From: a virus
Direction: 5' to 3' (one strand)
Virus genome (UHGV): UHGV-0206448
Length of the DNA: 41,488 bases
The notes below the pieces were generated by a model. It saw only the letters and a program-made list of their open reading frames with translations, ran no database searches and had not been told where the DNA came from. A program made the translations under genes and the position numbers. This document shows positions 9,001-40,510 of this stretch, piece after piece; positions within the stretch are counted from its first letter, which is position 1, and each line of letters begins with the position of its first letter.

Positions 9001-11034
9001 ACGGAACTGTCGAAACGTGTAGGAACTGAATTTGCGTTCTCACTCGATGTTAAAATAACCGGTTCGTTTACCAATCTGCGTACGAAGGTTGATTTTAGGG
9101 ATACCAGTCATAATAGTAGTATTTTTAGTAACTTTATTGGCATTAATGGTTTAGAAGTAGGAAAATGGACAAGGGTTTCCGGTGTGGCTTCTGTTAAAGA
9201 GGTTGCAAACGTTACGGCAACTCGTTCGCTATTCTTATTTGATTGGAGTAATTCAACTGTCGGATCTACGATCGAATATCGAAATCTACAGCTAGAAGAA
9301 GGTAATAAATCAACAGCATGGACACCGGCTCCAGAGGACATAGAAACTTTAGTAGTAACATTGTCCAACGATTCCCAAACAGTAGCAACAGACACAAACG
9401 GAAACGGTGGAAACTTTGTAGATTGCTCTACAAAAGTGCAGGTTTACAACGGCACACAGGACGTTTCAAAAGTCGCTACTTACACCGTAACAAAATCTTC
9501 CGGAATTGCTGGTACATGGGATTTAAGTACACGTACTTACAAGGTATCCGCTCTATCTACGGATAACGGATGGGTTGACATTAAAGTAACATACAACGGA
9601 AATTCTATCACAAGACGGTTTACGGTTTCGAAATCGAAACAGGGCGCACAGGGAGCAACGGGACCTCAAGGTGATAATGGACCACAAGGGCCGGCGGGGA
9701 CATCGGGAAGAGGGATAAAAACCATTACAGAATATTATTTGATTTCTTCCGCAAAAACAGGAATTACAACAGCGTCAAGCGGTTGGAGTACATCAGTTCC
9801 GACGATGACAGCAACAAATAAATACTTGTGGAACTATGAAAAATTTACGTTTACAGATAATACCACAGCGACCACTACGCCAAAAATAATCGGGATATAC
9901 GGAGACAAAGGAACAACAGGAGCTACTGGTCCGCAAGGACCTCAAGGAAATGCAGGTGCAACAGGTCCCCAGGGGCCACAAGGAGCGACTGGAAACGGAA
10001 TAAAGTCTATCACGAATTATTATCTTGCAACGGCAAGCGGAAGTGGTGTGTCAGCGTCCACATCAGGATGGACTACAACTGTACAAGAAATAACAGTGTC
10101 AAAAAAATATCTGTGGAATTATGAAGTTGTTACCTATACAAATGGTAGCACGTATCAATCAGCACCATGTATCATCGGAGCATATGGTGATAAGGGAGCG
10201 ACCGGTGCTACAGGAGCAACAGGACCAAGTGGCATAATTGTATCTTCTACGGCTCCGTCAAATCCTAAAGTTGGCCAGTTATGGCAAACGGCATCCGGTC
10301 AGCCGATCAAGCGGTGGGATGGAAGTAGGTGGGTGATCCATTATATTTCTGTTGATAACTTAAACGCACAGACTTTAAGTGCGATAGCGGCAGATCTTGG
10401 AACTGTAACCGCTGGACTTATAAAGAGTCTGGACGGACACTTTTTTATCCAAGTAAATACCGGAGAGATCTACTCCGAGGATGAAAACGGGATAAACAGC
10501 TCTGCGATAAGCAAGGGCGTATTTGTAGCGAATGGGATGGACAGCGGCAGACACACAAGCTTGTCTATATTCCCAACGCAGATTGCGCAGTATTTTGACG
10601 GAGCCACCATTTCCAACCTTGTTATTTTTAAACGGGACGGTATATTTGTTAAAAGCTCCGGATCATACGAAATAAACATATCTAAAGCAACAAATTATGA
10701 CTCCGGAAAAATAAAAGGACCATTCGCCAGCACAAACTCATCCAACTATATACAGGCGGAGCTAAAAAGGAGAGGGTGCGTGGTTACATGTAAAATCACA
10801 GCGCTTATACAGTTCCCGAATACAGGATCGCACGGGCCGTTTGATGAATTAAGGATACCTATAGGATATCGACCAGTCGTAGACATAGTAGAGACGTACA
10901 GCGAATTGGTTGGTCCGTCAGTTATCGGGACTGGCAGATATTATATCTCAAAAGACGGAGGAATATCCATTGTAACTGGCAAGACAGACTACTGTGAGCG
11001 CATAAAGACATTTACATGGATTACGGAAGACTAA
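6082..11034 (+). CDS. Tail-associated lysin/fibre (Tal) receptor-binding protein. N-terminal prophage-tail endopeptidase-like domain, multiple collagen-like Gly-X-Y tracts and duplicated modules.
   Basis: 1650 aa. Gly-X-Y tracts include '[25 protein letters not shown]', '[19 protein letters not shown]' and '[25 protein letters not shown]'. Duplicated ~55-aa modules ('[10 protein letters not shown]...KIKG') and duplicated 'GIK(T/S)IT.YYL...KYLWNYE' modules. Start overlaps the Dit stop. Confidence 0.85.
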
Positions 11035-13614: not shown

Positions 13615-15147
13615 TTATTTCGGTACTTTCGGGTACACATCAATCATAAATTCAGAGTTTTTCTGGTTCTTTTTATTCCGTTTTGTTTTGGTCAGTACAA
13701 TCCGGTCGATCAGTTTCCTTAAAGAGCTGTTCTTTTCCGGGATAGTCAGGGAGTTCCATTCGCTTAACAAGTTCTTGCACTTCGGGACAAAATTCTTTCG
13801 ATTTGCCTGCCTCGCAATCGTAGTATGTAAATCTTCCTGGGCAGCAGTGATATTGTTCATGCAGTCTCTGATCCGCTGTTCCAGTGCATTGGATCGTTCA
13901 ATGAAAATCTCTTTCGTGTAAATTCCCTGCTCTAAAAAATCAAATAAGGATTCTCTCTGCTTCAAAAGCGTCTGATGTTCAGTCTCAAAATTTGTGACGA
14001 TCAATTCTTTTGCGGCAATGGCAGCAGTATCTTCCTCATGAGTGTCAGAAAATTCATACTTGGCTATGTAGTCTTTCAGCCATCCCAGAAGAGCTTCTTC
14101 CAGTTCATCAATCCGTATTCCGACCGTGGAACATTCGGTATACTGGCAGATCAGCACATCATAGGGCGTTTTCGTCTGCGCTTTCTTGCGGACCATAAGC
14201 CGGCCGCATTGCGAGCATCTGACCAGACCTGCAAATAAATTTTGGATCGGTCTGTCATTTCTGACCGGAGAGGAAAAACAGCCTTTTGGTTGATTTGCAC
14301 GTTTGAACAGGTCTGCGCTGATGCGTGGCTCCCATGCTGCATCTGCGAGAATATAATCCGTAGCATTCGGCCGGGACTTTACCACACGACCATCCTTTAC
14401 GGCTCTGACTGTCTTACGATATCCCCAACGGACTTTCCCAATGTTTGCCGGATTTGAGATGATACCCTTGAGGGTGGAGGGAGAGAACGGCTTTCCGCTC
14501 CTTGCAAGGATTCCCATATTGGACATATAGGTACAGGCTTTTTGGTATCCGTACTGCTTATTTCCACACAGATCATACATCAGATCGAGAACCGGAGCTT
14601 CTGTCTGGCTGGGAGTAAGAGAGTAGTGTTTTCCATCTGGTGCAATGATACGCTCCCATCCATAAGGAGCAACATTGCCAACGTAATAACCATCAGAACT
14701 GGAACGTTCCCTGCCGCGCTGCATCCGGCGTTTAATTGTTGCGTATTCCCGGCGGCTCATGAATAAGCTGAACTCAAAATATTCATTGTCATATTCATTA
14801 GCTGGGTCGTAGGTTTTATTCGGTGTTACAATCCGGGTGCCGGAATAGAAAAATGCACGCTGCACACGCCCCTGATCGATCGTATCACCTCTGGCCAGAC
14901 GATCTACGTCCATTACGAGGGCGCCATCCCACATACAGGCTTCTACCTCAGAGAGGACTTGCGTCATGACTGGTCGGGCATCGATACTGTCTCCGGACAC
15001 AACTTCCCGGTAAATCGCACCGATCGGAAGAGAAAGCGTTTTGGCCAACTCCAATAGAGTGGTAATGTGGCGTTCCAGGACATCGATACCGAGTGCTTCC
15101 AGTTCAGCGTCTTTTCTGGATTTTCTGGCATAGATAAAATAAGACAT
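13615..15147 (-). CDS. Large serine recombinase (phage integrase).
   Basis: 510 aa. N-terminal resolvase-type catalytic domain ('IYARKSRKD'). Recombinase domain, zinc-ribbon ('CSQCGRLM...C') and coiled-coil C-terminus typical of large serine recombinases. RBS AGGAGTG. Confidence 0.95.
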   Translation of the reverse strand: MSYFIYARKSRKDAELEALGIDVLERHITTLLELAKTLSLPIGAIYREVVSGDSIDARPVMTQVLSEVEACMWDGALVMDVDRLARGDTIDQGRVQRAFFYSGTRIVTPNKTYDPANEYDNEYFEFSLFMSRREYATIKRRMQRGRERSSSDGYYVGNVAPYGWERIIAPDGKHYSLTPSQTEAPVLDLMYDLCGNKQYGYQKACTYMSNMGILARSGKPFSPSTLKGIISNPANIGKVRWGYRKTVRAVKDGRVVKSRPNATDYILADAAWEPRISADLFKRANQPKGCFSSPVRNDRPIQNLFAGLVRCSQCGRLMVRKKAQTKTPYDVLICQYTECSTVGIRIDELEEALLGWLKDYIAKYEFSDTHEEDTAAIAAKELIVTNFETEHQTLLKQRESLFDFLEQGIYTKEIFIERSNALEQRIRDCMNNITAAQEDLHTTIARQANRKNFVPKCKNLLSEWNSLTIPEKNSSLRKLIDRIVLTKTKRNKKNQKNSEFMIDVYPKVPK

Positions 15148-15334
15148 TGTATCACACTCCTATATAATTGTATTTAAAAAAAGGTACAAAAATAACAGCC
15201 AACACAAGAACGAATGTTCTGGATTGTATAGCTGTTCCGAAGATGATACAATATTCTTGGTCAAAATATGTGCATATCTTCGGATGTGTAGACCGTCTCA
15301 GTGTTGGTAGCACTGGGGCGGTATTTTTTTACGC

Positions 15335-15562
15335 CTATGCTGCTTTGTTATAATCGACTACTGCAAACTCGGTCAGCATAGTTTTGAGTTTTTCCAGAAT
15401 AGTTTCAATTTTCTTCAGGGTAACACCATTCAGATATTCTTCGCCACATTGAGTACATTTTTTACAAGGAACATTCTTGATGATAATGTAACAATTGTTA
15501 TATTCTGTCATATAAGTCGTTGTAGATTCTTCTACATTACCTTTACATGTAAAACACATCAT
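15335..15562 (-). CDS. YgiT/MqsA-type zinc-finger protein. Putative antitoxin partner of the DUF4258 protein.
   Basis: 75 aa with 'CFTCKG...(x)...CKKCTQCGEEY'. C-x2-C ... C-x2-C-x2-C arrangement typical of YgiT-type zinc fingers. Overlaps the upstream DUF4258 gene by 4 nt. Confidence 0.65.
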   Translation of the reverse strand: MMCFTCKGNVEESTTTYMTEYNNCYIIIKNVPCKKCTQCGEEYLNGVTLKKIETILEKLKTMLTEFAVVDYNKAA

Positions 15563-15882
15563 GATTTTTTCTCCTTTCTTGTCTCAAGATCCGATTCCCA
15601 TTTTTCGGAATCAGGATAATATGCTGTTACGATCCAAAGTGTTTCCAAATTACTTCCAACTACTACGTGAAGGTATTGATTCTTGATCGAAAGACCAAGG
15701 ATCAGACAACTTGGGAACGGATAGTCATCTGGGTATTGCTCAATTATTTTTCCACTTTGAATACAACTTATGACATCGTCTAGTAAAATTCCACGTTGCT
15801 CCAAACGTTTTGCCGCATGGAGTGTTATCTCAATATTTTCTAAAGAACATATTTCTTTTATAGAATCTATGGTAAGTTCCAA
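15559..15882 (-). CDS. DUF4258-family protein (RelE-fold putative toxin).
   Basis: 107 aa with 'HAAKRLEQRGI...YPDDYPFPSCLILG...LHVVVG...WIVTAYYPDSEKW', matching the DUF4258 pattern. Confidence 0.65.
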   Translation of the reverse strand: MELTIDSIKEICSLENIEITLHAAKRLEQRGILLDDVISCIQSGKIIEQYPDDYPFPSCLILGLSIKNQYLHVVVGSNLETLWIVTAYYPDSEKWESDLETRKEKKS

Positions 15883-15900
15883 TAATGCACCTTCTTTCTT

Positions 15901-16446
15901 TTATTTCAATAAATCATCAATGCAGATCTCGAAATCCTCAAATATTTTTAATTTGAGAATATCGTGAAAAGGTACAATCACCGGCGCGACATCTTCCTCA
16001 TATCGGTATACCGTTGTGCGTTCTCTGGCAGGATCCACAATCCAATACTCCCGAACACCTGCGTCAGTATAGAGCGTATTTTTGGTAGAATAATCCATTT
16101 TACGGCTGCTCGGTGAAACGATTTCGATGATAAAGTCAGGTGCTCCTTCACAGCCACGGTGTGAAATTTTGTTAGAATTACAGACAATGCTAATATCAGG
16201 TTCTACATAGTTTGAATCATCGTCTTTAATGAAAACAGCAAATGGAGCAGGATAAACTTTACAATTACCGTGCTTTTTACTGATATAGTTTTGCAACTCA
16301 GTTGTAAATAAAGCAACTAATTCCTGATGCAATGGGGATGGCGGCGCCATGTTATAAATTTGTCCGTCAATCAGCTCCGCTCGTTGCCCATCTGGAAGAG
16401 CATAGATGTCATCGATTGTATGTGTAGTTGTTTTTAATAATGGCAT
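15901..16446 (-). CDS. Uma2-family (DUF820) restriction-endonuclease-like protein.
   Basis: 181 aa with 'APDFIIEIVSPSSRKMDYSTKNTLYTDAGVREYWIVDP', the Uma2 signature. Confidence 0.85.
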   Translation of the reverse strand: MPLLKTTTHTIDDIYALPDGQRAELIDGQIYNMAPPSPLHQELVALFTTELQNYISKKHGNCKVYPAPFAVFIKDDDSNYVEPDISIVCNSNKISHRGCEGAPDFIIEIVSPSSRKMDYSTKNTLYTDAGVREYWIVDPARERTTVYRYEEDVAPVIVPFHDILKLKIFEDFEICIDDLLK

Positions 16447-16578
16447 GATATCACATCCTTTCTTGATTTAATTTGAATTCTCCCAGTATTTTGTATTATG
16501 TATAATCGACGAAACAGTTACACCTATCATGTAATTGCCTGCTGTGGAGCAGGGGGAGAAAAATTTACAATTTGTCTA

Positions 16579-16607
16579 TTGATGTATACAATATATTTGA
16601 ATATAAT
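16579..16607 (+). promoter_or_regulatory. Near-consensus sigma-A promoter (TTGATG-17-TATAAT) driving the small membrane-protein ORF.
   Basis: -35 at 16579-16584, -10 at 16602-16607, then RBS AAGGAGGG before the ATG at 16630. Confidence 0.5.
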
Positions 16608-16629
16608 TAAGAAAAAAGGAGGGCTTGAT

Positions 16630-16884
16630 ATGAAAAAACATATTATTTATGTAGTAAATAGTTTAATTTTTATTTTATGTTTTCTTTTTATATTGAGCAG
16701 CTTTTTCAAAATTATATCACATACATGTATAGAAGCATATCTATCTGATTCTAATAGTCTAGTTATTGTTTGGATAGTTGGGATTGTTGTAGCAGTTATT
16801 TTTACTCATCCTCTGTATCAGGAGATTCTTGCATGGAGGCTTCCTCTGAAAGAGTGGCTGCAGCTTCATCATCTAAAGCAATAG
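16630..16884 (+). CDS. Small (84-aa) two-TM membrane protein on the opposite strand from the lysogeny cargo genes. Superinfection-exclusion-like candidate.
   Basis: Strong promoter and RBS. Two hydrophobic helices ('IIYVVNSLIFILCFLFILSSFF', 'LVIVWIVGIVVAVIF'). Its 3' end overlaps the convergent 387-aa gene by about 83 nt. Confidence 0.5.
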   Translation: MKKHIIYVVNSLIFILCFLFILSSFFKIISHTCIEAYLSDSNSLVIVWIVGIVVAVIFTHPLYQEILAWRLPLKEWLQLHHLKQ

Positions 16885-17965
16885 GCTCGACTTCAAGAGC
16901 AACACATCCTGATGCTAAAGCATCAACTGGTCCACGTAAGGCTTCTGGATTGATTCCAGAGGCTTTAATTTTATTGTACAATTCGAGTTTCTTTTCAAGT
17001 ACTTGCAATTCTTTTTCGTCTGCTTCGGCATGTTTTAATCTGTAATCATCTTTAGCTGATAAAATAGATTTTATAATTTCTATAATCCCTGGCAGTTTAA
17101 ATGAAAAAGCGCTACCGCCACCTAGTAATATTAAAATTCCGAGTATGACAGTCCAGTTATTTGTCAAGAATTCTTTGACTTGATCTAATAAAAATATAAT
17201 GTCTCCCGGAGAGTTTAGTGTTACTTGAGTCGATATATTCTTTTCAGGAACTATTGATGATAAAAATTCCGTTGCTCCATAGAGAAGGCTATTAATAGAA
17301 CGAGGACCAATAGGCGTTTGTTTTCGGACACTAAATACTACTGAAATATCATTTTCAAGCATGTAATAGTTGTACAAAGTATTTAATATTTGTTTGGCGT
17401 AGCTGTCTAAGCTTGAAATTCCGTGATAGTTTGAAATAGCTCTACATAAAGAATAGTTTAATTCTTCATTTTTTACAGTTCGAAGTAAAGTAATATGTCT
17501 TCTCTTTTTGTAAGGACATGACACATCGTTTATATCGACATCGTGGTTTTCGATTCGAAATATGATATTTTTTTCCAATTCTACAGTTTTGGTTTCGTCT
17601 TCAAAATAATCACCTGCAAGAGCAAAAGTAATATAGCTACTGCGTGCACTTGGAATAACTAGGATATCATCAGTATGTATTTCATTAATAAAAGAAATAC
17701 ATTTATTAATCACTGTAGAGGGACGTTGTATTTCATTGAACTCCATTAAGATATCATCTTTTAAAGAATCTCTGGAAGATTCGGAAAAGTCAGTGTTTTG
17801 AGTAATATTATTCCAAGCTAATGCAACAAAGCGCTTCGAAATAAACTCATTATAAAAATACCCTTTTTTTGTTCTTATCATCCAAAATCTTTTAGTGCGT
17901 GGAATAACAGGAACCGAAAAAGTATCAATCCAATTTAGCACTTCATTTTCTTCATGTAATTCCAT
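16802..17965 (-). CDS. Unknown 387-aa protein: N-terminal globular domain, single TM helix, C-terminal coiled coil and acidic tail. Last gene of the repressor-ImmA operon.
   Basis: RBS GGAGAAAAGAGGAGAAAAT. TM segment 'WTVILGILILLGGGSAFSF'. Coiled-coil 'KELQVLEKKLELYNKIK'. Tail '...SEEASMQESPDTEDE'. No family recognised by eye. Confidence 0.6.
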   Translation of the reverse strand: MELHEENEVLNWIDTFSVPVIPRTKRFWMIRTKKGYFYNEFISKRFVALAWNNITQNTDFSESSRDSLKDDILMEFNEIQRPSTVINKCISFINEIHTDDILVIPSARSSYITFALAGDYFEDETKTVELEKNIIFRIENHDVDINDVSCPYKKRRHITLLRTVKNEELNYSLCRAISNYHGISSLDSYAKQILNTLYNYYMLENDISVVFSVRKQTPIGPRSINSLLYGATEFLSSIVPEKNISTQVTLNSPGDIIFLLDQVKEFLTNNWTVILGILILLGGGSAFSFKLPGIIEIIKSILSAKDDYRLKHAEADEKELQVLEKKLELYNKIKASGINPEALRGPVDALASGCVALEVEPIALDDEAAATLSEEASMQESPDTEDE

Positions 17966-18029
17966 AATATTTTCTCCTCTTTTCTCCTGTACCTTAACAC
18001 CACTTTACTCTATATAAACGCCATAGCGG

Positions 18030-18515
18030 TTATATCATTTCCATGACCGCTAAATTAGGAATAAAATAGATAACATAATTATCTACAGCAATATACTCAC
18101 CGTATTTTCCTTTATAGCAGTCAATAGCTTCTTGCAGATATTCTTCAGTGACATGTAGATGTTCTGCAACCTCATATCTATTTTGGCATCCAGCATTAAA
18201 AGCTGATATGATGCCTCGCAATCCGATCATCCGGTTATACCCGTGCAATCTTCCTTTTTGTTCTTGCTTCATATTTTCAATATCTTGTAGATCAAAGATA
18301 TCACCGACAGCAGTATGGTGATGTCCGATTTCTTCAGCTAAGACGCAAGCCTTTTCTGCGGATGTTTTCAACCTATTGGATATCGCAATTCTATTTCTGT
18401 ATATTAAACCATCACTGCCGGAAAGAGCCTTTTCGCGGACAATCAGTCCGCTACTATTAGCCTCTTCCAAAAGTTCTTCATAAATCGTCATTGTATCACT
18501 CCCATTCAGAGTCAT
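18030..18515 (-). CDS. ImmA/IrrE-family metallopeptidase (repressor-cleaving protease). Non-canonical EExxH in place of HExxH.
   Basis: 161 aa with '...CVLAEEIGHHHTAVGD...'. Overlaps and follows the XRE repressor gene, the canonical ImmR/ImmA arrangement. Confidence 0.75.
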   Translation of the reverse strand: MTLNGSDTMTIYEELLEEANSSGLIVREKALSGSDGLIYRNRIAISNRLKTSAEKACVLAEEIGHHHTAVGDIFDLQDIENMKQEQKGRLHGYNRMIGLRGIISAFNAGCQNRYEVAEHLHVTEEYLQEAIDCYKGKYGEYIAVDNYVIYFIPNLAVMEMI

Positions 18516-18972
18516 CCATCATGATGTCTTTATCGTGTTTTCTCATTTCATCTGTTACTTTAATGTCGGTTCGTTCATGAGCCGCTAATACTTCTAGATG
18601 GTTACTTGACATAGAGTAACGATCAATCAGAGTTAATTCCTCTAAACGTTTGTAAGCTTCTTTTTTCCCGAAATCATTTAACAAGTTATACAACTCCAAT
18701 AAAGCCTTTTCTGATTTTGAAATATATTCGATTGTTCCATTTCCCGTAAATAAATTTACTGTAGCTTTGTTTTTATCCCATCCCATTATATAAGATGGAG
18801 AAACATTTCCCAAATCAGCAGCAGCTTCTATCTTGTCTGATGGTATATTGGTTATAATATTGTTTTCATATTTATACAATGTTTGCTTTGATACATTTAT
18901 TTTGTCAGCAAAATCAACTTGACTCATTCCGAGTTTCGTTCTAATTTCTTTAATTCTTTCTCCAACCGTCAC
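18496..18972 (-). CDS. XRE-family HTH repressor (CI-like/ImmR-like) with a C-terminal oligomerisation/sensor domain.
   Basis: HTH 'GERIKEIRTKLGMSQVDFADKINVSKQTLYKYENN'. Chosen start is the GTG at 18972 with RBS AAAGGAG. The longer track ORF to 19050 would run through the divergent promoter. Confidence 0.8.
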   Translation of the reverse strand: MTVGERIKEIRTKLGMSQVDFADKINVSKQTLYKYENNIITNIPSDKIEAAADLGNVSPSYIMGWDKNKATVNLFTGNGTIEYISKSEKALLELYNLLNDFGKKEAYKRLEELTLIDRYSMSSNHLEVLAAHERTDIKVTDEMRKHDKDIMMDDSEWE

Positions 18973-19043
18973 ATCAATTGCTCCTTTCTTATGAAGTAAC
19001 TTAATGATAACACAAAAATGTAATAAAATCAATAAAAAATATC

Positions 19044-19071
19044 TTGACAAGTTACAAATATGTGATATACT
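19044..19071 (+). promoter_or_regulatory. Early rightward promoter (TTGACA-16-TGaTATACT) in the genetic switch region.
   Basis: -35 TTGACA at 19044-19049. Extended -10 TGATATACT ending at 19071. Drives the Cro-like gene. Confidence 0.5.
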
Positions 19072-27334: not shown

Positions 27335-28696
27335 ATGGAAAATTTGATTATAGATTGCTTCGCCGGAGGAGGTGGAGCGAGCGTAGGAATAGAAATGGCA
27401 CTTGGAAGACAAGTAGATATTGCAATCAATCACGATCCGGATGCAATTTTGATGCACAAGACAAACCATCCGAAAACATTGCATCTCACAGAAGATATAT
27501 TCAGGGTAGATTTGAAGAAATATGTGAAAGGAAAGCGAGTTGCTTTAATGTGGGCGAGTCCTGATTGTACCAGCCACAGCAAGGCGAAAGGTGGAAAACC
27601 GAGGGAAAAAGGACTTCGGATTTTGCCTTGGGCGGTATACAAACACGCAAAAGCAATTCTCCCAGATGTGATTATTATGGAAAACGTGGAAGAGATTCAG
27701 CAGTGGGGACCTTTGGATGAAAACGGGCATCCGATTAAGGAGCGGCGTGGGGAAGATTATGAGAAGTTCATTACGGCAATGAAGAGTCTCGGGTATATAT
27801 TCGACTGCCGGGAGCTTGTTGCGGCAGACTATGGCGCGCCAACCACGAGAAAGCGCTGGTATGCAATTTTCAGGAGAGATGGAAAAGACATCGTGTGGCC
27901 AGAAAAGACAAATTTTAAATCCAGAGATCCGAAATGGCAGGAATGCGGGGCATATATCGATTGGTCTGATTTAGGGAAAACGATATTTGATAGACAGAAA
28001 CCGTTGGCAGATGCAACGATGAAAAGGATTGCAAATGGAATCAGAAAATATGTAATAGACAATCCATCTCCCTATATCGTGAGAAATAAAGATGCTGTTG
28101 CATTTATGATTCAATATCACGGAGAAACAAAAATTGGAGAATCAAGAGGACAGTTACTGACAGAACCAATTAAAACAATCGACACATCAAACAGGTACGG
28201 GCTGGTGACAGCTTTCATTACAAAATTTTATAAAAGTGGAATCGGACAGGGATGCAACGAACCTTTACACACAATCACAACATCACCTGGACATTTTGGA
28301 TTGATATCTGCGTTTTTAATTAAGTATTACGGAACTGGCGGAGGACAAGAACTTTCAAATCCGCTTGCAACGATTACCACAAAAGATCGTTTCGGGCTGG
28401 TAAATGTGATTCTGGATATCAAAGGCGAAAAGTATGTCCTGAAGGATATTTTTTTGAGAATGTTAAAACCGGAAGAGCTTAAATTAATGCAAGGATTTCC
28501 GGAGGACTACATCATTGACAGGGATTACAAATACAGGAGATATCCGATCGCAAAACAAGTAGCTAGAATCGGAAACAGTGTAGTGCCAATCATGGCACAG
28601 AAACTGGTAGAAGCAAACTGCCCGTATTTAAAAATCGGGAATAGGGTGCCGAACATAGAAATATATGAGGATGAGCAACAAATTAGGTTTGCGTAG
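27335..28696 (+). CDS. DNA (cytosine-5)-methyltransferase, orphan (no cognate restriction endonuclease nearby).
   Basis: Motif I 'DCFAGGGGASVG', motif IV 'SPDCTSHS', ENV 'IIMENVEEI', motif X 'RIGNSVVPIMA'. Internally duplicated ~32-aa segment in the variable region. Confidence 0.9.
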   Translation: MENLIIDCFAGGGGASVGIEMALGRQVDIAINHDPDAILMHKTNHPKTLHLTEDIFRVDLKKYVKGKRVALMWASPDCTSHSKAKGGKPREKGLRILPWAVYKHAKAILPDVIIMENVEEIQQWGPLDENGHPIKERRGEDYEKFITAMKSLGYIFDCRELVAADYGAPTTRKRWYAIFRRDGKDIVWPEKTNFKSRDPKWQECGAYIDWSDLGKTIFDRQKPLADATMKRIANGIRKYVIDNPSPYIVRNKDAVAFMIQYHGETKIGESRGQLLTEPIKTIDTSNRYGLVTAFITKFYKSGIGQGCNEPLHTITTSPGHFGLISAFLIKYYGTGGGQELSNPLATITTKDRFGLVNVILDIKGEKYVLKDIFLRMLKPEELKLMQGFPEDYIIDRDYKYRRYPIAKQVARIGNSVVPIMAQKLVEANCPYLKIGNRVPNIEIYEDEQQIRFA

Positions 28697-35090: not shown

Positions 35091-36449
35091 ATGAATGGGA
35101 AAAGACCATACAAACTGCCGGAACCGCTTTTATGTTCCGCTGATAAAGAAATCAATATGACATTAGTAGATGAGTATATTCGCAAGCATGAAGAGCGAAT
35201 ACCAAGGTACAGATACCTTGAGAATCTATACAAAGGTTTCCACGATGTATTCCGTCTTCCGGAAAAGGAGTCATGGAAGCCGGATAACCGACTGGCAGTG
35301 AATTTCCCAAGGTATATCACAGAGACCTTTTTGGGATACGCTTATGGGATTCCGGTTAAAAAATCTCACCCAGACGAAAAAATAAAAGATGCGATCCTTG
35401 AATTTGACCGGGATAACGATATCTCAGATCAAGAATACGAGCTGGCGAAGAAGTGCTGCATCTACGGACATGCTTTTGAGTATTTTTACCAGGATGAAGA
35501 AGCAAAGACAAAGACAGTAGTCTGCAATCCAAAAGAACTGTTTGTTGTCTACGATGATACCGTAAAGAGCCGCGCCCTATTTGCAGTGAGATACGGGAAA
35601 AAGGACGATAATGTTACAAGGTATGGTGAGATACTAACAAGGACAGAAATCATCCCATTTGAGGGAGAAAAGATGCAGGAGGGAGTGCTGAACCCTTATG
35701 GGCGCATCAATTGCGTGGAATACCTGTTAAACGATGAGAGAATCGGCCTGTACGAGGAAATTGCCGGCATGGTAGAAACATACAACCGAGTGATCGGAGA
35801 AAAGGCAAATGATGTAGATTCTTTCGCAGAAGCGTATCTTGCAGTGCTTGGTGCAGAATTGGACGAAGAGGGTGTTTACAAGATTAGGGACAACCGGATT
35901 ATAAACTTGTACGGCACAGATAATGCAAAAGATATTATCGTACAGTTTCTCGGAAAGCCTACGGCAGACGGAACACAGGAAAATCTTTTGAATCGGCTTG
36001 AGGATTTGATTTATCAGACAAGTATGGTAGCGAATATCTCAGATGAATCGTTTGGAAATGCTTCTGGAACTTCCCTCGCGTATAAACTGCAGTCTATGAG
36101 CAATCTTGCACTAACGTTCGACCGTAAAGTTGAAAAGTCCATGAGGAAACGATATAAGCTGTTTTGCTCTCTTGCAACGAATGTGTCAGATCGGGACGCG
36201 TGGAAAGATATTGATTTTACAATGAGTAGGAATATCCCGAAGAATCTCCTTGAAGAAGCACAGACAGCACAGGCGCTTGAAAGCATCGTATCCAAGGAAA
36301 CGCAGCTGCAGGTGCTATCTGTTGTCAAGGACGTTTCGGAGGAGATCGATCGAATGGAGAAAGAGGACAAAAAGAAGCAGGAAACAATCGTAGAGAAGCG
36401 GATGTTCGGAGGTGCGGCGGATGAGCAGCAGGACGTACTGGAAGAATAG
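35091..36449 (+). CDS. Portal protein (SPP1 gp6-like).
   Basis: 452 aa. Position between TerL and the MuF protein. Acidic C-terminus. Confidence 0.8.
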   Translation: MNGKRPYKLPEPLLCSADKEINMTLVDEYIRKHEERIPRYRYLENLYKGFHDVFRLPEKESWKPDNRLAVNFPRYITETFLGYAYGIPVKKSHPDEKIKDAILEFDRDNDISDQEYELAKKCCIYGHAFEYFYQDEEAKTKTVVCNPKELFVVYDDTVKSRALFAVRYGKKDDNVTRYGEILTRTEIIPFEGEKMQEGVLNPYGRINCVEYLLNDERIGLYEEIAGMVETYNRVIGEKANDVDSFAEAYLAVLGAELDEEGVYKIRDNRIINLYGTDNAKDIIVQFLGKPTADGTQENLLNRLEDLIYQTSMVANISDESFGNASGTSLAYKLQSMSNLALTFDRKVEKSMRKRYKLFCSLATNVSDRDAWKDIDFTMSRNIPKNLLEEAQTAQALESIVSKETQLQVLSVVKDVSEEIDRMEKEDKKKQETIVEKRMFGGAADEQQDVLEE

Positions 36450-37932
36450 GGAAGAAGAACAGCGAAAGAAGAATATCAAGGATGAAGCTGAATATGCGAA
36501 AGAGATCGAGAAGATCTACGCGAACATGATGGATGAAATCCAGAAAGAGATCAATGGATTTTACACACGATATGCAAAAGCAGAAGGAATCACAATCGCA
36601 GAAGCAAAGAAACGGGTATCTAAAATGGATATTGATGCATACAGCCGGAAGGCGAAACGGTATGTAAAGGATAAGAATTTTTCAAAAGAAGCCAATGAAG
36701 AGATGCGGCTATATAATGCCGCTATGAAGATCAACAGGCTTGAAATGCTAAAAGCAAATATCGGAATGCATCTTGTTGGCGGATTTGATGAGCTTCAGAA
36801 GTATTTTGACCAGATCCTGACAGAGAAAACACTGGAAGAATTTGAAAGGCAGGCTGGAATTCTTGGCAAATCCATTCAAAACAATGCGAAGATGGCACAT
36901 TCGATCGTGAATGCTTCTTTCCACAATGCGAAATACTCAGACCGTATTTGGATGTACCAGGACATGATGAAAGCCGAATTGTCGAAGCTATTACAGACTG
37001 GTTTGATACAGGGTAAGAATCCGAGAATACTGGCAAGGCACCTTACCAAACTGTTTGGAGTAAGCCGGGAAAATGCAGAGCGACTGATGATAACGGAGCT
37101 GTCGAGGGTGCAGGCAGAAGCGCAGAAACAGTCTTATATCCGCAATGGATTTGATGAGTATGAGTTTATCGCAGAACCTACCGCCTGTCCGATCTGTAGA
37201 TCGTTGGACGGAAAACATTTTAAAGTATCAAAAATGATGCCTGGAGAAAATGCGCATCCAATGCATCCTAATTGTCATTGCAGTACAGCAGCATATATGG
37301 ATGATAAAGAGTATCGAGAATGGCTGGATGGATATTCTAAACACGGGATGAATTTTGAGGAGTGGAAAGACAGGAGAGAGAAGGAAGAAAGCAAAAGGAA
37401 GTATAAGTACAGCAATACAGTTGTTGACACAAACCTTATCAATTCTCCAGAATACAGAAGGCGAATTGATAAGATTTCCAGTACGACAAAGGTTAATAGA
37501 AACACATGGAAAGTTGCAAAGGATATGTTGTTTCATAGGTCCGGGACAAAATTTGAAGATTTAGCATATATTGATGAAAAAACGGGAAAATATGAAATCA
37601 ACAAGGAATTTGATACTGAAAGTCGCGCAAAGCCGAATAAGAAAATGGATGCAATGCTGAAAGATGCAGATCCGTATACCATCATTGGAATACATAATCA
37701 TCCGGGAAGCAGTGTTCCAAGCATGGGAGATATACAAGTTTGTTTGCATAGAAAATATAAATGTGGTGTCGTTGTATGTCATGACGGCAAGATTTTTCAG
37801 TATTCTGTTGATGAAAAAAGATTTAATAAAATAATTTGCAACTATGCTCTTGAAAGAATGGAAAAAGAAGGATATACTGATTCTGTAAAAAATATGTTTT
37901 ATGATTCAGGCGTTGAAATGAAGGTGTTATGA
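36412..37932 (+). CDS. Minor head protein: MuF/SPP1-gp7 head-morphogenesis domain fused to a C-terminal RadC-like JAB (DUF2466-type) domain.
   Basis: 506 aa. The gp7/MuF domain ends with 'CPICRSL...HPNCHCS'. The C-terminal ~180 aa contain 'IGIHNHPGSSVPSMGDIQ' and 'CHDGKIFQYSV', matching the RadC HNHP...PS..D and DH.I...YS motifs. Confidence 0.8.
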   Translation: MRRMSSRTYWKNREEEQRKKNIKDEAEYAKEIEKIYANMMDEIQKEINGFYTRYAKAEGITIAEAKKRVSKMDIDAYSRKAKRYVKDKNFSKEANEEMRLYNAAMKINRLEMLKANIGMHLVGGFDELQKYFDQILTEKTLEEFERQAGILGKSIQNNAKMAHSIVNASFHNAKYSDRIWMYQDMMKAELSKLLQTGLIQGKNPRILARHLTKLFGVSRENAERLMITELSRVQAEAQKQSYIRNGFDEYEFIAEPTACPICRSLDGKHFKVSKMMPGENAHPMHPNCHCSTAAYMDDKEYREWLDGYSKHGMNFEEWKDRREKEESKRKYKYSNTVVDTNLINSPEYRRRIDKISSTTKVNRNTWKVAKDMLFHRSGTKFEDLAYIDEKTGKYEINKEFDTESRAKPNKKMDAMLKDADPYTIIGIHNHPGSSVPSMGDIQVCLHRKYKCGVVVCHDGKIFQYSVDEKRFNKIICNYALERMEKEGYTDSVKNMFYDSGVEMKVL

Positions 37933-38105
37933 TGGATAAAGAGAAAGAATATAAGAGAATATGCGAAAAGTTGGGGTGCAGGCCAACAGAAATAAAGATA
38001 CCGGATTTAAAAACAGAAGATGACAGCTGGGAAAATCCAGTCAGTAAACTCACAGTAGAAGAAATTGATTTTCTTTATGAAAATGGTTATTTGAATCCAA
38101 GATAG
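37929..38105 (+). CDS. 58-aa acidic ORF, ATGA-coupled to the end of the MuF-JAB gene. Possible partner/immunity-like protein.
   Basis: Start codon overlaps the stop of the MuF gene. 'MMDKEKEYKRICEKLGCRPTEIKIPDLKTEDDSWENPVSKLTVEEIDFLYENGYLNPR'. Below the ORF-track cutoff. Confidence 0.35.
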   Translation: MMDKEKEYKRICEKLGCRPTEIKIPDLKTEDDSWENPVSKLTVEEIDFLYENGYLNPR

Positions 38106-38165
38106 ATACCACCAGTCAGAAAAAGGCCGGTGGTATTTTTGTACTCATTTTGGAGGTGATGCGAT

Positions 38166-38453
38166 TTGATTGAGGTGAGAATTCGACCAGAGCGAATTAA
38201 AATCTCTGGACACGCCGGGTATGCGGAGCCGGGAAAAGATATTGTGTGTGCAGCTGTGACAGCACTTACACAGACGCTGATTCAGTCGATTGAAAATTTA
38301 ACAGATGATGAAATAGAATACAGAATATCTCCCGGAAAGGCTGAGATAGAATACAGGAATCTGTCAGAGAAATCAAAAACTCTGGTGGATTCCTTTTTTG
38401 TTGGCATTCGCTTGATTGCCGATGAGTTTCCAAATTATGTAGCAATTATGTAA
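38166..38453 (+). CDS. prp: Prp-family (DUF464) cysteine protease (ribosomal-processing protease homologue), phage-encoded.
   Basis: 95 aa. 'ISGHAGYAEPGKDIVCAAVTALTQT' contains the catalytic His and Cys. TTG start with RBS GGAGGTGA. Lies between the MuF and scaffold genes. Confidence 0.75.
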   Translation: MIEVRIRPERIKISGHAGYAEPGKDIVCAAVTALTQTLIQSIENLTDDEIEYRISPGKAEIEYRNLSEKSKTLVDSFFVGIRLIADEFPNYVAIM

Positions 38454-38535: not shown

Positions 38536-39111
38536 ATGAAGAGCAGGATGTTTAGAATGCTGCAGTTATTTGCAGAAGTAACCCTAGATCACACAGCAGA
38601 ACCTGATGCGGTGAAAGATAGTGTTAATCCGGAAAACACATCTGATGATAGAGGGGAAGAAAAAAAGTACACAGACAAGGATGTGGATGCGATTGTAAAC
38701 AAAAGATTCGCAAAATGGAAAACTGAGCAGGAACAGGCGGTAAAGAGTGCTAAGGAAGAGGCAGAAAAGCTGGCAAAAATGAATGCTGAGCAGAAACAGA
38801 ATTACGAGATCGAGAAGTTGCAAAAAGAGAATGAAAAACTGAAGCAGGAGGCTGCAAAGGTTGAGCTTAGCAGAAGCGCCACAGGCATTCTTGCAGAAAA
38901 AGGAATTGAAGCAACGCAGGATGTTCTTGATTTTGTTGTAGGGAATGACGCTGATGATACGAATACAAAAATTGATAAGCTTGTAAAAATCGTGGAATCC
39001 CAGCTTAAGAAAGCCGAGATCGCCAGAGCAACCGGAACTACACCAAAAACTATGACGAACTCAGGAAGCCAGTTGTCTGAATTTGAAAAGAGACTTGCAA
39101 AGTATAAATAA
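38536..39111 (+). CDS. Scaffolding protein.
   Basis: 191 aa, highly helical, Lys/Glu-rich, immediately upstream of the capsid gene. N-terminus 'MKSRMFRMLQLFAE'. Confidence 0.75.
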   Translation: MKSRMFRMLQLFAEVTLDHTAEPDAVKDSVNPENTSDDRGEEKKYTDKDVDAIVNKRFAKWKTEQEQAVKSAKEEAEKLAKMNAEQKQNYEIEKLQKENEKLKQEAAKVELSRSATGILAEKGIEATQDVLDFVVGNDADDTNTKIDKLVKIVESQLKKAEIARATGTTPKTMTNSGSQLSEFEKRLAKYK

Positions 39112-39125
39112 AGGAGAATGCGAAA

Positions 39126-40043
39126 ATGAAGAACAGAGAATTTATGATGTTACAGTTATTTGCGGCAGGAGACAACAATGATATGCCGGTAAGAAGCTAC
39201 CAGCTTGAGTTTAAAAGCCTTTTGCAGGCAGTATTTAAAAAGATGTCTTATTTCGCGGATTTTTTCGGCGGCGAACTTGAGGCACTGGATGGAGTCAGAG
39301 AAAATGAAACAGCCTTTTATGTAAAAACATCAGACATTCCGGTTGTGGTTGGGACCGGATATGATAAAACGAAAACGAAAGCTTTTGGAACGGGAACAGG
39401 GAACTCTAGCCGTTTCGGAGAGAGAACAGAGATTATTTACACTAACACACCGGTTAATTACTCTTGGGGATGGAATTTCCATGAGGGGATTGACCGCCAC
39501 ACCGTAAATAATGATTTTGATGTTGCGGTAGCAGATCGATTGGAACTGCAGTCTCGGGCAAAAACAAAGCAGTTTAATAAGCAGCATGGAAAATTTATTT
39601 CCACATCTGCCGGAAAAACTTTAAGCGTTACTGATTATACGGCAGACAATGTTTTGAAGTTGTTCAATGAACTTTCTAAGTATTTCAATAATATTGAAGC
39701 AGTTGGAACGAAAAAAATTAAGGTTTGTTCCGATCTGTACAATGCCGTTGTGGATCATCCTCTGAATACGACTGCTAAAAACTCTACTGTAAACATTGAT
39801 GGCAATGAGGTTGTGAAGTTCAAGGGATTCCTTGTAGAGGAGATTCCGGATGAGCTCTTCCAGTCCAAAGAATGTGCCTATGCATATATTGCCGGAGTTG
39901 CAAAAGCATTTACTGGAATTAACACAGCGAGAACGATCGAATCCGAGGATTTTGACGGTGTAGCTTTGCAGGGAGCTGGTAAGGCTGGAGAATTTATTCC
40001 GAATGACAACAAGAAAGCTGTAGTTAAAGTGTCGGTGGGGTAG
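39126..40043 (+). CDS. Major capsid protein.
   Basis: 305 aa after the scaffold gene. N-terminus 'MKNREFMMLQLFAA' shares the LQLFA motif. Confidence 0.8.
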   Translation: MKNREFMMLQLFAAGDNNDMPVRSYQLEFKSLLQAVFKKMSYFADFFGGELEALDGVRENETAFYVKTSDIPVVVGTGYDKTKTKAFGTGTGNSSRFGERTEIIYTNTPVNYSWGWNFHEGIDRHTVNNDFDVAVADRLELQSRAKTKQFNKQHGKFISTSAGKTLSVTDYTADNVLKLFNELSKYFNNIEAVGTKKIKVCSDLYNAVVDHPLNTTAKNSTVNIDGNEVVKFKGFLVEEIPDELFQSKECAYAYIAGVAKAFTGINTARTIESEDFDGVALQGAGKAGEFIPNDNKKAVVKVSVG

Positions 40044-40126: not shown

Positions 40127-40510
40127 ATGGCATATACACCAACTACATGGAATGACGGCGACGTTATGACAGCAGAGAAACTGAATAAGTTAGAGCAGGG
40201 CGTGAAGAATGAGCAGGTTGGACCAGCAGGACCAGTAGGACCAGCAGGACCGGCAGGAGCAAAAGGCGAAAAAGGCGAAAAAGGCGATCAAGGAGTAGCA
40301 GGACCGAAAGGAGACAAGGGAGATCCAGGCGCACAGGGACCTGCGGGACCAAGTTACACTCTTCCAGCGGCGAATAAAACAACGCTTGGCGGTGTGAAAC
40401 AGATGGCTTTGATTGCAGATTTGTCGACAGAAACAGCGACTGATCTGAAAAATAAAATCAATGCGATTCTTGCGGAGATGAAAAAACAGGGTATCATGGC
40501 GAATTCGTAA
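40127..40510 (+). CDS. Collagen-like (Gly-X-Y) head decoration / fibre protein.
   Basis: 127 aa with '[44 protein letters not shown]'. Confidence 0.7.

What the first reader, a model, noticed from the sequence alone, without database searches (positions are those of the whole stretch)
36412..38105. Capsid-packaged MuF/gp7 protein fused to a RadC-like JAB domain, with a translationally coupled 58-aa ORF
SPP1 gp7/MuF proteins are packaged in the capsid and ejected with the DNA. Here the MuF domain ends at its usual CPxC...HxxCHC zinc knuckle (about residue 300) and is followed by an extra ~180-aa domain. The extra domain carries HNHPGSSVPSMGD and CHDGKIFQYS. These match the RadC/DUF2466 JAB signature (HNHPxG...PSxxD, then DHxI...YS). 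The spacer before PS is one residue shorter than the canonical HxHx7Sx2D. MuF C-terminal fusions are known as polymorphic toxins delivered by temperate Firmicutes phages, typically followed by a small immunity gene. A 58-aa acidic ORF starts at the ATGA overlap immediately downstream. A JAB-type domain injected with the genome could be a toxin with immunity, or an anti-defence effector, for example against ubiquitin-like or JAB-regulated host defences. No function of this exact fusion is established.
Basis: partly seen in the sequence, partly recalled or inferred. Interest (0 to 1): 0.72.

Follow-up and report, generated by a model that had tools for sequence, protein, structure and literature searches.

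The report
Phage head protein carrying JAB toxin tip
A temperate gut-bacterial phage encodes a capsid-internal MuF/gp7 protein whose swappable C-terminal tip is a previously uncatalogued JAB-fold metal enzyme, always paired with a tiny acidic partner gene; this looks like a new toxin–immunity cassette of the known "MuF polymorphic toxin" kind.

Summary

The family is large (≥1,383 50%-identity clusters, gut Clostridia) and the domain is always C-terminal. It occurs on MuF-superfamily carriers or as a stand-alone ~200-aa protein.

The 58-aa ORF is real and under purifying selection. A homologue or analogue abuts the JAB stop in every locus that has sequence there. It co-varies with the JAB tip and not with the carrier. 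It occurs as tandem duplicates, and survives as an orphan where another tip has displaced JAB. Tip and carrier recombine at about residues 310–330.

Best reading: a new toxin/effector tip plus immunity pair of the known MuF polymorphic-toxin class. Its substrate is unknown. Toxicity, packaging and an anti-defence role are untested.

The parts
36421..37932 (+). MuF-JAB fusion gene. The ORF listing gives a GTG start at 36412 (506 aa); the probable start is ATG 36421 (503 aa). Residue numbers in this report count from 36412.
   Evidence: GGAGG at 36408-36412 lies 8 nt before ATG 36421; homologues start MxSxxYWKxRE
36979..37287 (+). SPP1 gp7 / Phage_Mu_F domain (residues 190-292), including the zinc knuckle CPIC (37186-37197) and HPNCHC (37264-37281)
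   Evidence: Pfam PF04233 E 9e-17; TIGR01641 E 3e-24; motif positions
37339..37401 (+). Carrier/tip recombination junction (about residues 310-330). Identity to MuF proteins with other tips collapses here.
   Evidence: identity to L089 and L001 is 60-80% up to residue ~300, then 10-27%. The reverse pattern is seen against L034.
37384..37929 (+). Mobile C-terminal module (about residues 325-506): a conserved helical lead-in (KYKYSNTVVD..SPEYRRRID, equivalent to QRYGRNKxTxIN..SGEYRxKFD in stand-alone forms) followed by the JAB/MPN core
37555..37557 (+). Glu382 (FEDL), the putative catalytic glutamate, 46 residues before the HxH
   Evidence: invariant in A2 (76 sequences) and A3
37693..37731 (+). 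JAMM-like motif HNHPGSSVPSMGD (His428, His430, Ser437, Asp440), with a 6-residue rather than 7-residue spacer
   Evidence: H428, H430 and D440 invariant, S437 >=90% conserved; aligned to RadC HNHPSGDVqPSNAD with a 1-residue gap
37777..37806 (+). CHDGKIFQYS (His457, Gly459, Tyr464), resembling RadC's LDHIVIG..YVSF
   Evidence: H457 invariant in A3; YicR sequence read; the equivalence is not covered by the hhalign alignment
37929..38105 (+). 58-aa acidic partner ORF and candidate immunity protein. ATGA overlap with the JAB stop; alternative start ATG 37932.
38104..38143 (+). Hairpin plus U-run (intrinsic-terminator-like) marking the 3' edge of the cassette
   Evidence: dG -16.4 kcal/mol, z -3.4; conserved with compensatory changes in related loci
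35091..36449 (+). SPP1-type portal gene immediately upstream, overlapping the MuF gene (context)
   Evidence: Pfam PF05133 E 3e-104

Best explanation
This is a MuF-type polymorphic toxin/effector locus of a temperate siphovirus of gut Clostridia.

The N-terminal ~310 residues are an SPP1-gp7/MuF head protein. By analogy with SPP1 gp7, this part is incorporated into the procapsid through the portal and leaves with the DNA (inferred, not shown here).

The C-terminal ~185 residues are a self-contained, horizontally exchangeable module. It consists of a helical lead-in and a JAB-fold metal-dependent hydrolase with an intact Glu...HxH...Ser..Asp site. Its nearest sequence relative is the RadC clade.

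The overlapping 58-aa acidic ORF encodes its cognate partner. That partner most likely binds the basic JAB module stoichiometrically and keeps it inactive in the producing cell or lysogen, as an immunity or antitoxin protein does. It is probably not packaged.

Once delivered into a cell that lacks the partner, the JAB tip would hydrolyse a cytoplasmic target. I think a nucleic-acid or nucleotide-linked substrate, as proposed for RadC and Tox-JAB domains, is somewhat more likely than a ubiquitin-like isopeptide.

Shown here: the domain identities, the fold, conservation of the catalytic residues, the modular exchange, and the strict linkage and co-variation with the small ORF. Inferred: packaging, toxicity, neutralisation by binding, and the substrate.
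For: Domain identities and genomic position
- The MuF domain lies directly after the SPP1-type portal gene.
- The phage is temperate: serine integrase, ImmA-like peptidase, tail and lysis genes.

JAB fold and active site
- AF2 pLDDT 91.9.
- Foldseek top hits are RadC 2qlc and PfJAMM1, probability 0.97.
- 16 of 34 relatives hit Pfam RadC weakly and 14 of 34 hit Prok-JAB.
- hhalign against a RadC profile: 91.7%, E 7.9e-7.
- E382, H428, H430 and D440 are invariant; S437 and H457 are >=90% conserved in 76 diverse representatives.

Polymorphic-toxin signatures
- Identity to MuF proteins with other tips (L089, L001) is 60-80% up to residue ~300 and 10-27% afterwards. Against L034 (different carrier, same tip) it is 7-30% in the N-terminal part and 40-67% in the tip.
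- The tip occurs on Phage_Mu_F (48), Phage_min_cap2 (17) and VG15 (8) carriers.
- A homologous small ORF abuts the JAB stop in 84 of 89 loci. Four of the five exceptions are contig ends.
- In 79 of 79 divergent genome loci a 35-110-aa ORF abuts the stop.
- Partner distances track JAB distances (r 0.81; partial r 0.77; Mantel p 5e-4) and not carrier distances (partial r -0.16).
- About 25 loci carry tandem duplicate partners.
- An orphan partner lies downstream of a different tip and its own 79-aa ORF in L089-91, and that protein is widespread, in 134 index blocks.
- Stand-alone ~200-aa JAB plus small ORF pairs occur between housekeeping genes: MatE | pair | SAICAR synthetase.
- Decayed prophages retain the pair.

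Properties of the partner
- It is under purifying selection: pN 0.18-0.31 against pS 0.7-1.0, and this includes the orphan copy.
- Charges are complementary: module pI 9.2, partner pI 4.2-4.7.

Literature
- MuF toxins are typical of temperate Firmicutes phages. [quoted passage not shown]
- Toxin and immunity genes travel as pairs, and tip displacement leaves the old immunity gene behind (PMC3482391).
Against: - No experiment shows toxicity, neutralisation, packaging or ejection.
- The domain is found only on MuF-superfamily carriers or alone. It never appears on LXG, Rhs, T6SS or other toxin-delivery N-termini, whereas about 75% of MuF toxin domains are shared with other polymorphic-toxin families (PMC5576092).
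- The shortened spacer could alter or abolish metal binding. Metal-site geometry could not be inspected.
- Co-variation of two adjacent genes can arise from linkage alone.
- The divergent 'family 2' partner ORFs are only weakly related to the 58-aa family (hhalign 53%, E 1e-4).
Confidence: 0.68

Rival explanations
1. Injected anti-defence deconjugase. The JAB tip is a Cap3/BilC-like isopeptidase delivered with the genome. It strips ubiquitin-like conjugates, such as Cap2-primed CD-NTases in type II CBASS or Bil/Bub conjugates on virion proteins, before host immunity fires. The small ORF would be a pseudo-substrate inhibitor or chaperone that silences the enzyme during assembly.
For: - The catalytic Glu, His, His, Ser and Asp needed for isopeptidase chemistry are conserved.
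- MuF fusions are proposed early-injected effectors (PMC5512222).
Against: - PADLOC has no Cap3 or JAB hit.
- Sequence-level affinity is to RadC, whose clade is argued to lack the Ubl-tail groove (PMC5512222, PMC3482391).
- Stand-alone JAB plus small ORF pairs sit in chromosomes without phage context, and orphan partners are retained. Both fit a toxin-immunity pair better than an anti-defence enzyme, which normally needs no cognate inhibitor.
- No paper in the library reports a phage-borne JAB anti-defence protein.
Confidence: 0.12
2. Non-toxic RadC-like nucleic-acid-processing helper. The tip acts on the incoming phage DNA or on host nucleic acids to aid genome establishment, repair, circularisation or the lysogeny decision. 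The small ORF would be a regulatory subunit rather than an immunity protein.
For: - RadC is the nearest sequence relative.
- RadC domains occur in polyvalent early-entry proteins of phages and conjugative elements and are proposed to process nucleic acids (PMC5512222).
- The module is basic, pI 9.2.
- gp7-type carriers contact the DNA end in the capsid (established knowledge of SPP1 gp7).
Against: - Close relatives replace the tip with unrelated domains while keeping the same head and replication modules, so the activity is dispensable and interchangeable. That is typical of conflict effectors.
- Orphan partner genes under purifying selection and tandem partner duplicates are hard to explain for a mere regulatory subunit.
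Confidence: 0.13
3. Morphogenetic or self-processing peptidase. The JAB domain cleaves a head component, or the fusion itself, during capsid maturation, and the small ORF is an assembly chaperone.
For: - JAB domains are peptidases in characterised cases.
- The gene sits in the head-assembly module next to a Prp protease and the scaffold gene.
- PHROG families matching the N-terminal part carry labels such as 'head maturation protease'.
Against: - The PHROG matches stop at residue ~409 or earlier and reflect the MuF part.
- The phage already encodes Prp, and both scaffold and capsid carry the MLQLFA Prp motif.
- Stand-alone JAB pairs lie in non-phage chromosomal contexts.
- Sister phages with the same head genes carry unrelated tips.
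Confidence: 0.04

Closest known systems
MuF polymorphic toxins of temperate Firmicutes phages (Jamet et al. 2017, PMC5576092; MuF delivery class in Zhang et al. 2012, PMC3482391)
   Same: - SPP1-gp7/MuF carrier encoded after the portal gene of a temperate siphovirus.
- Variable C-terminal tip beginning just after the zinc knuckle.
- Small ORF immediately downstream.
- Tip-plus-ORF cassettes exchanged by recombination.
- Abundant in human gut Firmicutes.
   Different: [quoted passage not shown]
- JAB and RadC are not mentioned in the main text or the held supplements of that paper.
- The tip was not found on any non-MuF toxin carrier.
RadC / YicR family (Pfam PF04002; PDB 2qlc)
   Same: - JAB fold.
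- HNHP...PSxxD motif.
- Upstream Glu on the preceding strand.
- Downstream His...Tyr-x-Ser pattern (CHDG..YS against LDHIVIG..YVSF).
- Best sequence-profile relative: E 0.02 against 2qlc; hhalign 91.7%.
   Different: - Below the Pfam and NCBIfam thresholds.
- One-residue deletion between HxH and Ser.
- No N-terminal HhH/UPF0758 domain.
- Has its own helical lead-in and HRSGT motif.
- Always paired with a small partner ORF.
Tox-JAB-1 (PF15659) and Tox-JAB-2 (DUF4329) toxin domains of Rhs, T6SS and T7SS polymorphic toxins (Zhang et al. 2012)
   Same: - Divergent JAB domains used as C-terminal toxin tips with cognate immunity genes.
- E, HxH, S, D signature.
- Proposed to act as nucleases rather than DUBs.
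   Different: - Only single spurious-level Pfam hits (E 0.041 and 0.14).
- Different carriers: Rhs and others, not MuF.
- Different immunity families (Imm65 lipoprotein, Imm-NTF2-2), whereas the partner here is a 45-67-aa acidic helical protein.
Bacterial defence-associated JAB deconjugases (CBASS Cap3, PDB 9ild; BilC, PDB 8tyy) and archaeal JAMM1 (PDB 5ld9)
   Same: - Same catalytic residue set.
   Different: - 11-13% sequence identity.
- No E1, E2 or Ubl genes nearby.
- No PADLOC hit.
- Phage-encoded and fused to a head protein.

Membership tests
SPP1 gp7 / Phage_Mu_F (PF04233, TIGR01641) | HMM score above the curated threshold | tested here: met
   PF04233 62.3 bits against 29.6; TIGR01641 85.4 bits against 39.65
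SPP1 gp7 / Phage_Mu_F (PF04233, TIGR01641) | Gene located directly downstream of the portal gene in the packaging/head module | tested here: met
   TerS, TerL, SPP1 portal, MuF, Prp, scaffold, MCP in that order
SPP1 gp7 / Phage_Mu_F (PF04233, TIGR01641) | Protein present in the capsid via the portal and ejected with the DNA | not testable with these tools
   Needs virion proteomics or ejection assays
JAB/MPN (JAMM) superfamily | JAB/deaminase-like alpha/beta fold | tested here: met
   [not shown]
JAB/MPN (JAMM) superfamily | Catalytic residues Glu ... His-x-His ... Ser-x-x-Asp conserved | tested here: met
   E382, H428, H430 and D440 invariant, S437 >=90% conserved in 76 representatives
JAB/MPN (JAMM) superfamily | Canonical spacing HxHx7Sx2D | tested here: not met
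   The spacer is 6 residues family-wide, with a one-residue gap against RadC
JAB/MPN (JAMM) superfamily | Zinc actually bound, and hydrolase activity | not testable with these tools
   Model coordinates could not be inspected; needs biochemistry
RadC (PF04002 / TIGR00608) | HMM score above the curated threshold | tested here: not met
   The window protein has no hit at E<=1. The best relative reaches E 0.0026. NCBIfam RadC scores 13-14 bits against cut-offs of 134-180.
RadC (PF04002 / TIGR00608) | Detectable homology of the JAB core to a RadC profile | tested here: met
   hhalign A3 against A4: 91.7%, E 7.9e-7, 57 columns; 2qlc is the top PDB profile hit, E 0.02
RadC (PF04002 / TIGR00608) | Downstream DH-x-I ... 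Y-x-SF motif | tested here: inconclusive
   CHDG...YS resembles it and H457 is invariant, but hhalign did not extend over this region
MuF-type polymorphic toxin system | Conserved carrier with a variable, recombining C-terminal tip | tested here: met
   Identity profiles; alternative tips in L001 and L089; three carrier families
MuF-type polymorphic toxin system | Cognate small immunity ORF immediately downstream, inherited together with the tip | tested here: met
   84 of 89 and 79 of 79 loci; co-variation r 0.81; orphan copy and tandem copies
MuF-type polymorphic toxin system | Tip is toxic and the downstream protein neutralises it | not testable with these tools
   Needs a toxicity and rescue assay
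MuF-type polymorphic toxin system | Tip domain shared with other polymorphic-toxin delivery families (common, but not obligatory) | tested here: not met
   Only Phage_Mu_F, Phage_min_cap2 and VG15 carriers, or stand-alone forms
[quoted passage not shown] | Match to PF15659 or DUF4329, and association with Imm65 or Imm-NTF2-2 | tested here: not met
   Single hits at E 0.041 and 0.14 among 34 members; the partner ORF has no Pfam hit
CBASS Cap3 / Bil / Bub deconjugases | Operon with E1/E2-like and Ubl or CD-NTase genes; defence-HMM match | tested here: not met
   No PADLOC JAB hit; the neighbours are phage head genes

The most novel reading that the evidence does not exclude
The JAB tip may be a virion-delivered deconjugase that acts as a Cap3/BilC mimic. 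Injected ahead of phage gene expression, it would erase ubiquitin-like conjugation-based immunity (type II CBASS priming, Bil or Bub). The tiny acidic partner would be a pseudo-substrate lock that is left behind in the producer cell. That would be the first pre-packaged anti-Ubl counter-defence enzyme, and it would be widespread in human gut phages.
Probability: 0.1. Interest if true: 0.85.

Novelty: new member of a known kind. Interest (0 to 1): 0.5.

Why it matters
MuF polymorphic toxins are abundant in human-gut temperate phages. About a third of their C-terminal tips are unassigned, and their biological role is still debated: do they kill competitors, bias lysogeny, or take over the host?

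This work assigns one large unassigned group (at least 1,383 clusters at 50% identity, in gut Clostridia) to the JAB superfamily. It also defines its cognate partner family and shows that the pair behaves as a mobile two-gene cassette.

The nearest relatives are RadC proteins, whose biochemical function has been an open question for decades. A RadC-like enzyme with a probable toxic phenotype and a dedicated inhibitor would give a tractable handle on what this JAB clade actually cleaves, through toxicity and rescue assays, co-crystallisation and substrate trapping.

Tried and rejected
- Direct Pfam and PHROG scans of the C-terminal 190 aa gave only spurious sub-threshold hits such as IFNGR1_D2, OAF_C and ILEI.
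- phmmer of the tip against PDB sequences found nothing. The first, less diverse profile gave RadC only at E 0.92.
- PADLOC returned one spurious pAgo hit (13.9 bits) and nothing for the partner ORFs.
- My first downstream-ORF picker took the first ATG and returned out-of-frame peptides for many loci. I replaced it with an HMM search of stop-to-stop segments.
- The apparent 'stand-alone' 134-147-aa JAB proteins among close relatives turned out to be decayed or truncated prophage remnants: L003 has a MuF zinc-knuckle remnant and an in-frame stop, and L086-88 are truncated at a chromosomal junction. Genuine stand-alone ~200-aa forms exist only in the more divergent branch.
- The genome scan with the very diverse alignment A3 failed, so I repeated it with A1.
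- A 39-aa RadC fragment was too short to use as a query, so I used E. coli YicR instead.
- The afdb50 fold library was unavailable, so I used BFVD.
- The simple terminator scanner missed the hairpin after the small ORF. Folding detected it.
- Alternative tips (L089, L001) and their small ORFs gave no Pfam identification.
- A complex model of JAB with its partner, and inspection of metal-site geometry, were not possible with the tools available.
Full report
**1. What is in the sequence**

The window is a complete-looking temperate siphovirus genome, circularly permuted. It encodes:
- a tape-measure protein, Dit, a collagen-repeat Tal and an amidase;
- a large serine recombinase, an ImmA-like M78 peptidase, a Uma2 nuclease and a C5-methylase;
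- the packaging and head row: TerS, TerL, SPP1-type portal (PF05133, E 3e-104), the gene in question, a 58-aa ORF, a Prp cysteine protease, a DUF4355 scaffold and a major capsid protein.

ORF 36412-37932 is 506 aa as listed. Its GTG start overlaps the GGAGG Shine-Dalgarno at 36408-36412. ATG 36421 has ideal spacing and matches homologue N-termini, so the protein is probably 503 aa. Residue numbers below count from 36412.

The MuF assignment is solid: PF04233 at residues 190-292, 62.3 bits against 29.6, and TIGR01641 phageSPP1_gp7, 85.4 bits against 39.65. The zinc knuckle is CPIC 259-262 and HPNCHC 285-290. HNHPGSSVPSMGD lies at 428-440 and CHDGKIFQYS at 456-465.

The 58-aa ORF (37929-38105) overlaps the stop codon as ATGA. 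A second ATG at 37932 gives TGATG. It has pI 4.73.

**2. Is the extension a JAB or RadC domain?**

The window protein gives no Pfam RadC or JAB hit at E<=1, and no PDB sequence hit. The following evidence supports the assignment:

- Among 34 relatives, 16 hit Pfam RadC weakly (best E 0.0026) and 14 hit Prok-JAB. JGI named three of them 'proteasome lid subunit RPN8/RPN11'.
- An AlphaFold2 model built with the family alignment is confident, with pLDDT 91.9 and pTM 0.85.
- Foldseek against the PDB puts RadC 2qlc and P. furiosus JAMM1 on top, probability 0.97.
- A 41-sequence diverse profile of the core finds RadC 2qlc as the best PDB sequence (E 0.02). The motif aligns as iiaiHnHPessv.PSiaD against IILVHNHPSGDVqPSNAD.
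- I built a RadC profile from E. coli YicR relatives. hhalign gives 91.7% probability and E 7.9e-7 over 57 columns, again with a one-residue gap.

In 76 diverse representatives, E382, H428, H430, P436 and D440 are invariant. H375, R376, G378, D383, P431, S437, Y449, H457, G459 and Y464 are at least 90% conserved.

The domain is therefore a JAB-superfamily enzyme with an intact catalytic constellation and a family-wide 6-residue spacer. RadC is its nearest sequence relative. It is not a RadC member by curated thresholds, and structurally it is equidistant from DUB-type JAMMs.

The downstream CHDG..YS resembles RadC's LDHIVIG..YVSF, but that equivalence was not confirmed by alignment.

**3. How big and how modular is the family?**

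An exhaustive profile search finds 1,383 representatives of 50%-identity clusters (976 at E<=1e-10). In every listed hit the domain is at the extreme C-terminus.

The N-terminal partners among 76 long representatives are Phage_Mu_F (48), Phage_min_cap2 (17) and VG15 (8). No other toxin-delivery domains appear.

330 IMG/VR contigs and 188 species-representative genomes encode relatives. The genomes are gut Clostridia, including Lachnospiraceae, Oscillospiraceae, Ruminococcus and Anaerostipes.

The best BFVD structural matches are gut-virome 'Minor capsid protein' entries (TMq ~0.78) that carry no JAB annotation.

Identity profiles show a clean recombination junction at about residues 310-330:
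- Against MuF proteins with other tips (L089; Dorea phage DO134P1), identity is 60-80% up to residue ~300 and then 10-27%.
- Against L034 (different carrier, same tip), identity is 7-30% in the N-terminal part and 40-67% in the tip.

The 'linker' (KYKYSNTVVD..SPEYRRRID) is part of the module. It is modelled confidently as helices packed on the core. It is conserved as QRYGRNKxTxIN..SGEYRxKFD at the N-terminus of stand-alone ~200-aa forms.

**4. The small ORF**

An HMM of the 58-aa protein finds a homologue directly after the JAB stop in 84 of the 89 loci held at that point. Four of the exceptions are contig ends. The fifth is the Dorea phage, which has a different tip.

In 80 more divergent genome loci:
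- 28 have the same partner family.
- The rest have a 42-67-aa ORF in the same position, with motifs such as DDRVIIPDxIKxMSxEEL. It is only weakly related to the first family (hhalign 53%, E 1e-4).
- Overall, 79 of 79 loci with sequence downstream have an abutting small ORF.

Other properties of the partner:
- It has no Pfam, PHROG, NCBIfam or PADLOC match.
- It is predicted to be a small helical protein, with the invariant acidic motif (E30 D31 D32 .. P37) in a central loop (pLDDT 79).
- It is under purifying selection: pN 0.18-0.31 with saturated pS.
- Across 35 distinct pairs, its divergence tracks that of the JAB tip (r 0.81; partial r 0.77 controlling for the carrier; Mantel p ~5e-4) and not that of the carrier (partial r -0.16).
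- About 25 loci carry two tandem diverged copies.

In L089-91 a closely related MuF carrier has an unrelated tip followed by its own 79-aa ORF. An intact orphan copy of the 58-aa family comes after that. That orphan protein is widespread, occurring in 134 index blocks.

Decayed prophages retain the tip-and-partner pair. Genuine stand-alone pairs sit between housekeeping genes, for example MatE | pair | SAICAR synthetase and GH43 | pair | HTH-AIRS.

These are the signatures described for polymorphic toxin-immunity cassettes: toxin and immunity genes travel as pairs, and displacing a tip leaves the old immunity gene behind (PMC3482391). They also match MuF toxins specifically. [quoted passage not shown]

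**5. Mechanism**

The best-supported reading has four steps:
1. The MuF/gp7 carrier takes the tip into the capsid, and the tip leaves with the DNA. This is inferred from SPP1 gp7.
2. The tip is a metal-dependent hydrolase.
3. The acidic partner (pI 4.2-4.7) binds the basic module (pI 9.2) and holds it inactive in the producer cell or lysogen.
4. In a recipient cell that lacks the partner, the tip attacks a cytoplasmic target.

I lean towards a nucleic-acid or nucleotide-linked substrate because the sequence affinity is to RadC, and because that activity has been proposed for RadC and Tox-JAB domains (PMC5512222, PMC3482391). The fold is equally compatible with an isopeptidase.

Rival readings:
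- An injected anti-Ubl counter-defence enzyme is the most interesting alternative. The structural similarity to Cap3 and BilC supports it. The need for a cognate inhibitor, the orphan partners, the chromosomal stand-alone pairs and the absence of defence-HMM hits weaken it.
- A non-toxic RadC-like DNA-processing helper is possible but fits the partner-gene evidence poorly.
- A head-maturation peptidase is unlikely. Sister phages swap the tip freely, the phage has its own Prp, and both scaffold and capsid carry the MLQLFA motif.

**6. Comparison with what is known, and novelty**

The architecture is that of the known MuF polymorphic toxins. JAB domains are already known as toxin tips on other carriers (Tox-JAB-1 and Tox-JAB-2), and RadC domains are known in polyvalent entry proteins.

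I found no description of a MuF-JAB fusion or of this partner family in the library. No curated model covers either protein.

I therefore rate it a new member of a known kind. It is large, gut-associated and cleanly defined, but it is not a new principle. Its main value is as a tractable entry point to the biochemistry of RadC-like JAB enzymes and to the still-unsettled biology of MuF toxins.

Noticed in passing
window 38166-38453; 38536-39111; 39126-40043: The phage encodes its own Prp-type cysteine protease (PF04327, E 3e-22). Both the scaffold (MKSRMFRMLQLFAE...) and the major capsid protein (MKNREFMMLQLFAAG...) begin with the same MLQLFA motif. This resembles the L27/Prp cleavage site used for capsid and scaffold processing in staphylococcal phages.
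   Followed up: partly
window 38104-38143: A strong hairpin (AUACCACC...GGUGGUAU, dG -16.4 kcal/mol, z -3.4) followed by UUUUU sits immediately after the 58-aa ORF, inside the late operon. Related loci keep a hairpin plus U-run at the same place, with compensatory changes (L002, L006, L024, L055, L083) or with different stems (L034, L063, L085). It may be an attenuator, a terminator or the 3' boundary of the cassette.
   Followed up: partly
L001 3965-5494 and 5472-5627 (Dorea phage DO134P1, OP172779.1): A closely related MuF carrier has a different ~190-aa tip containing VVTHNHPSGGSFSFTD, with the same short HxH-x6-S-x2-D spacing. It is followed by an overlapping 51-aa hyper-acidic ORF (pI 4.05). 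This may be a second, very divergent JAB-like tip and partner pair. There is no Pfam hit, and only the motif aligns to the window tip.
   Followed up: partly
L089 3352-5177: The MuF carrier has an unrelated, unidentified tip (...LLLHHELLESTLEKKY..., weak Zeta_toxin hit at E 0.012) and a 79-aa ORF. An orphan homologue of the 58-aa ORF follows, and then YjcQ, a 118-aa ORF and Prp. This is an example of serial tip displacement.
   Followed up: partly
L014-L033 group, about 4527-4957: About 25 viral loci carry two tandem, diverged copies of the small partner ORF after a single JAB tip.
   Followed up: partly
P0139 (family representative): One representative has YNHP instead of HNHP, so the first metal-ligand His is lost. 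Others have HNHA, HNHG or HTHS. These may be inactive or altered variants within the family.
   Followed up: no
window 40127-40510 and 6082-11034: A 127-aa ORF just after the capsid gene consists largely of collagen-like Gly-X-Y repeats ([25 protein letters not shown]...). The 1650-aa tail protein also carries collagen repeats (PF01391) next to a Prophage_tail domain.
   Followed up: no
window 13615-19050 (- strand): The lysogeny region holds a large serine recombinase (510 aa), a Uma2-family putative endonuclease (181 aa), a 387-aa ORF with no Pfam hit and an ImmA/IrrE-like M78 peptidase. A C5 cytosine methylase lies at 27335-28696 (+).
   Followed up: partly
L141 103-1277: One chromosomal stand-alone JAB pair lies near DUF2262 and DUF3916 genes of unknown function, upstream of a GH43 gene. 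I did not determine whether these are immunity-type genes.
   Followed up: no
L095, L097 (genome contigs titles): A few JAB-tip loci are on contigs binned to Tidjanibacter (Bacteroidota) or 'Alphaproteobacteria' MAGs. These are probably mis-binned phage contigs rather than a true host-range extension.
   Followed up: no
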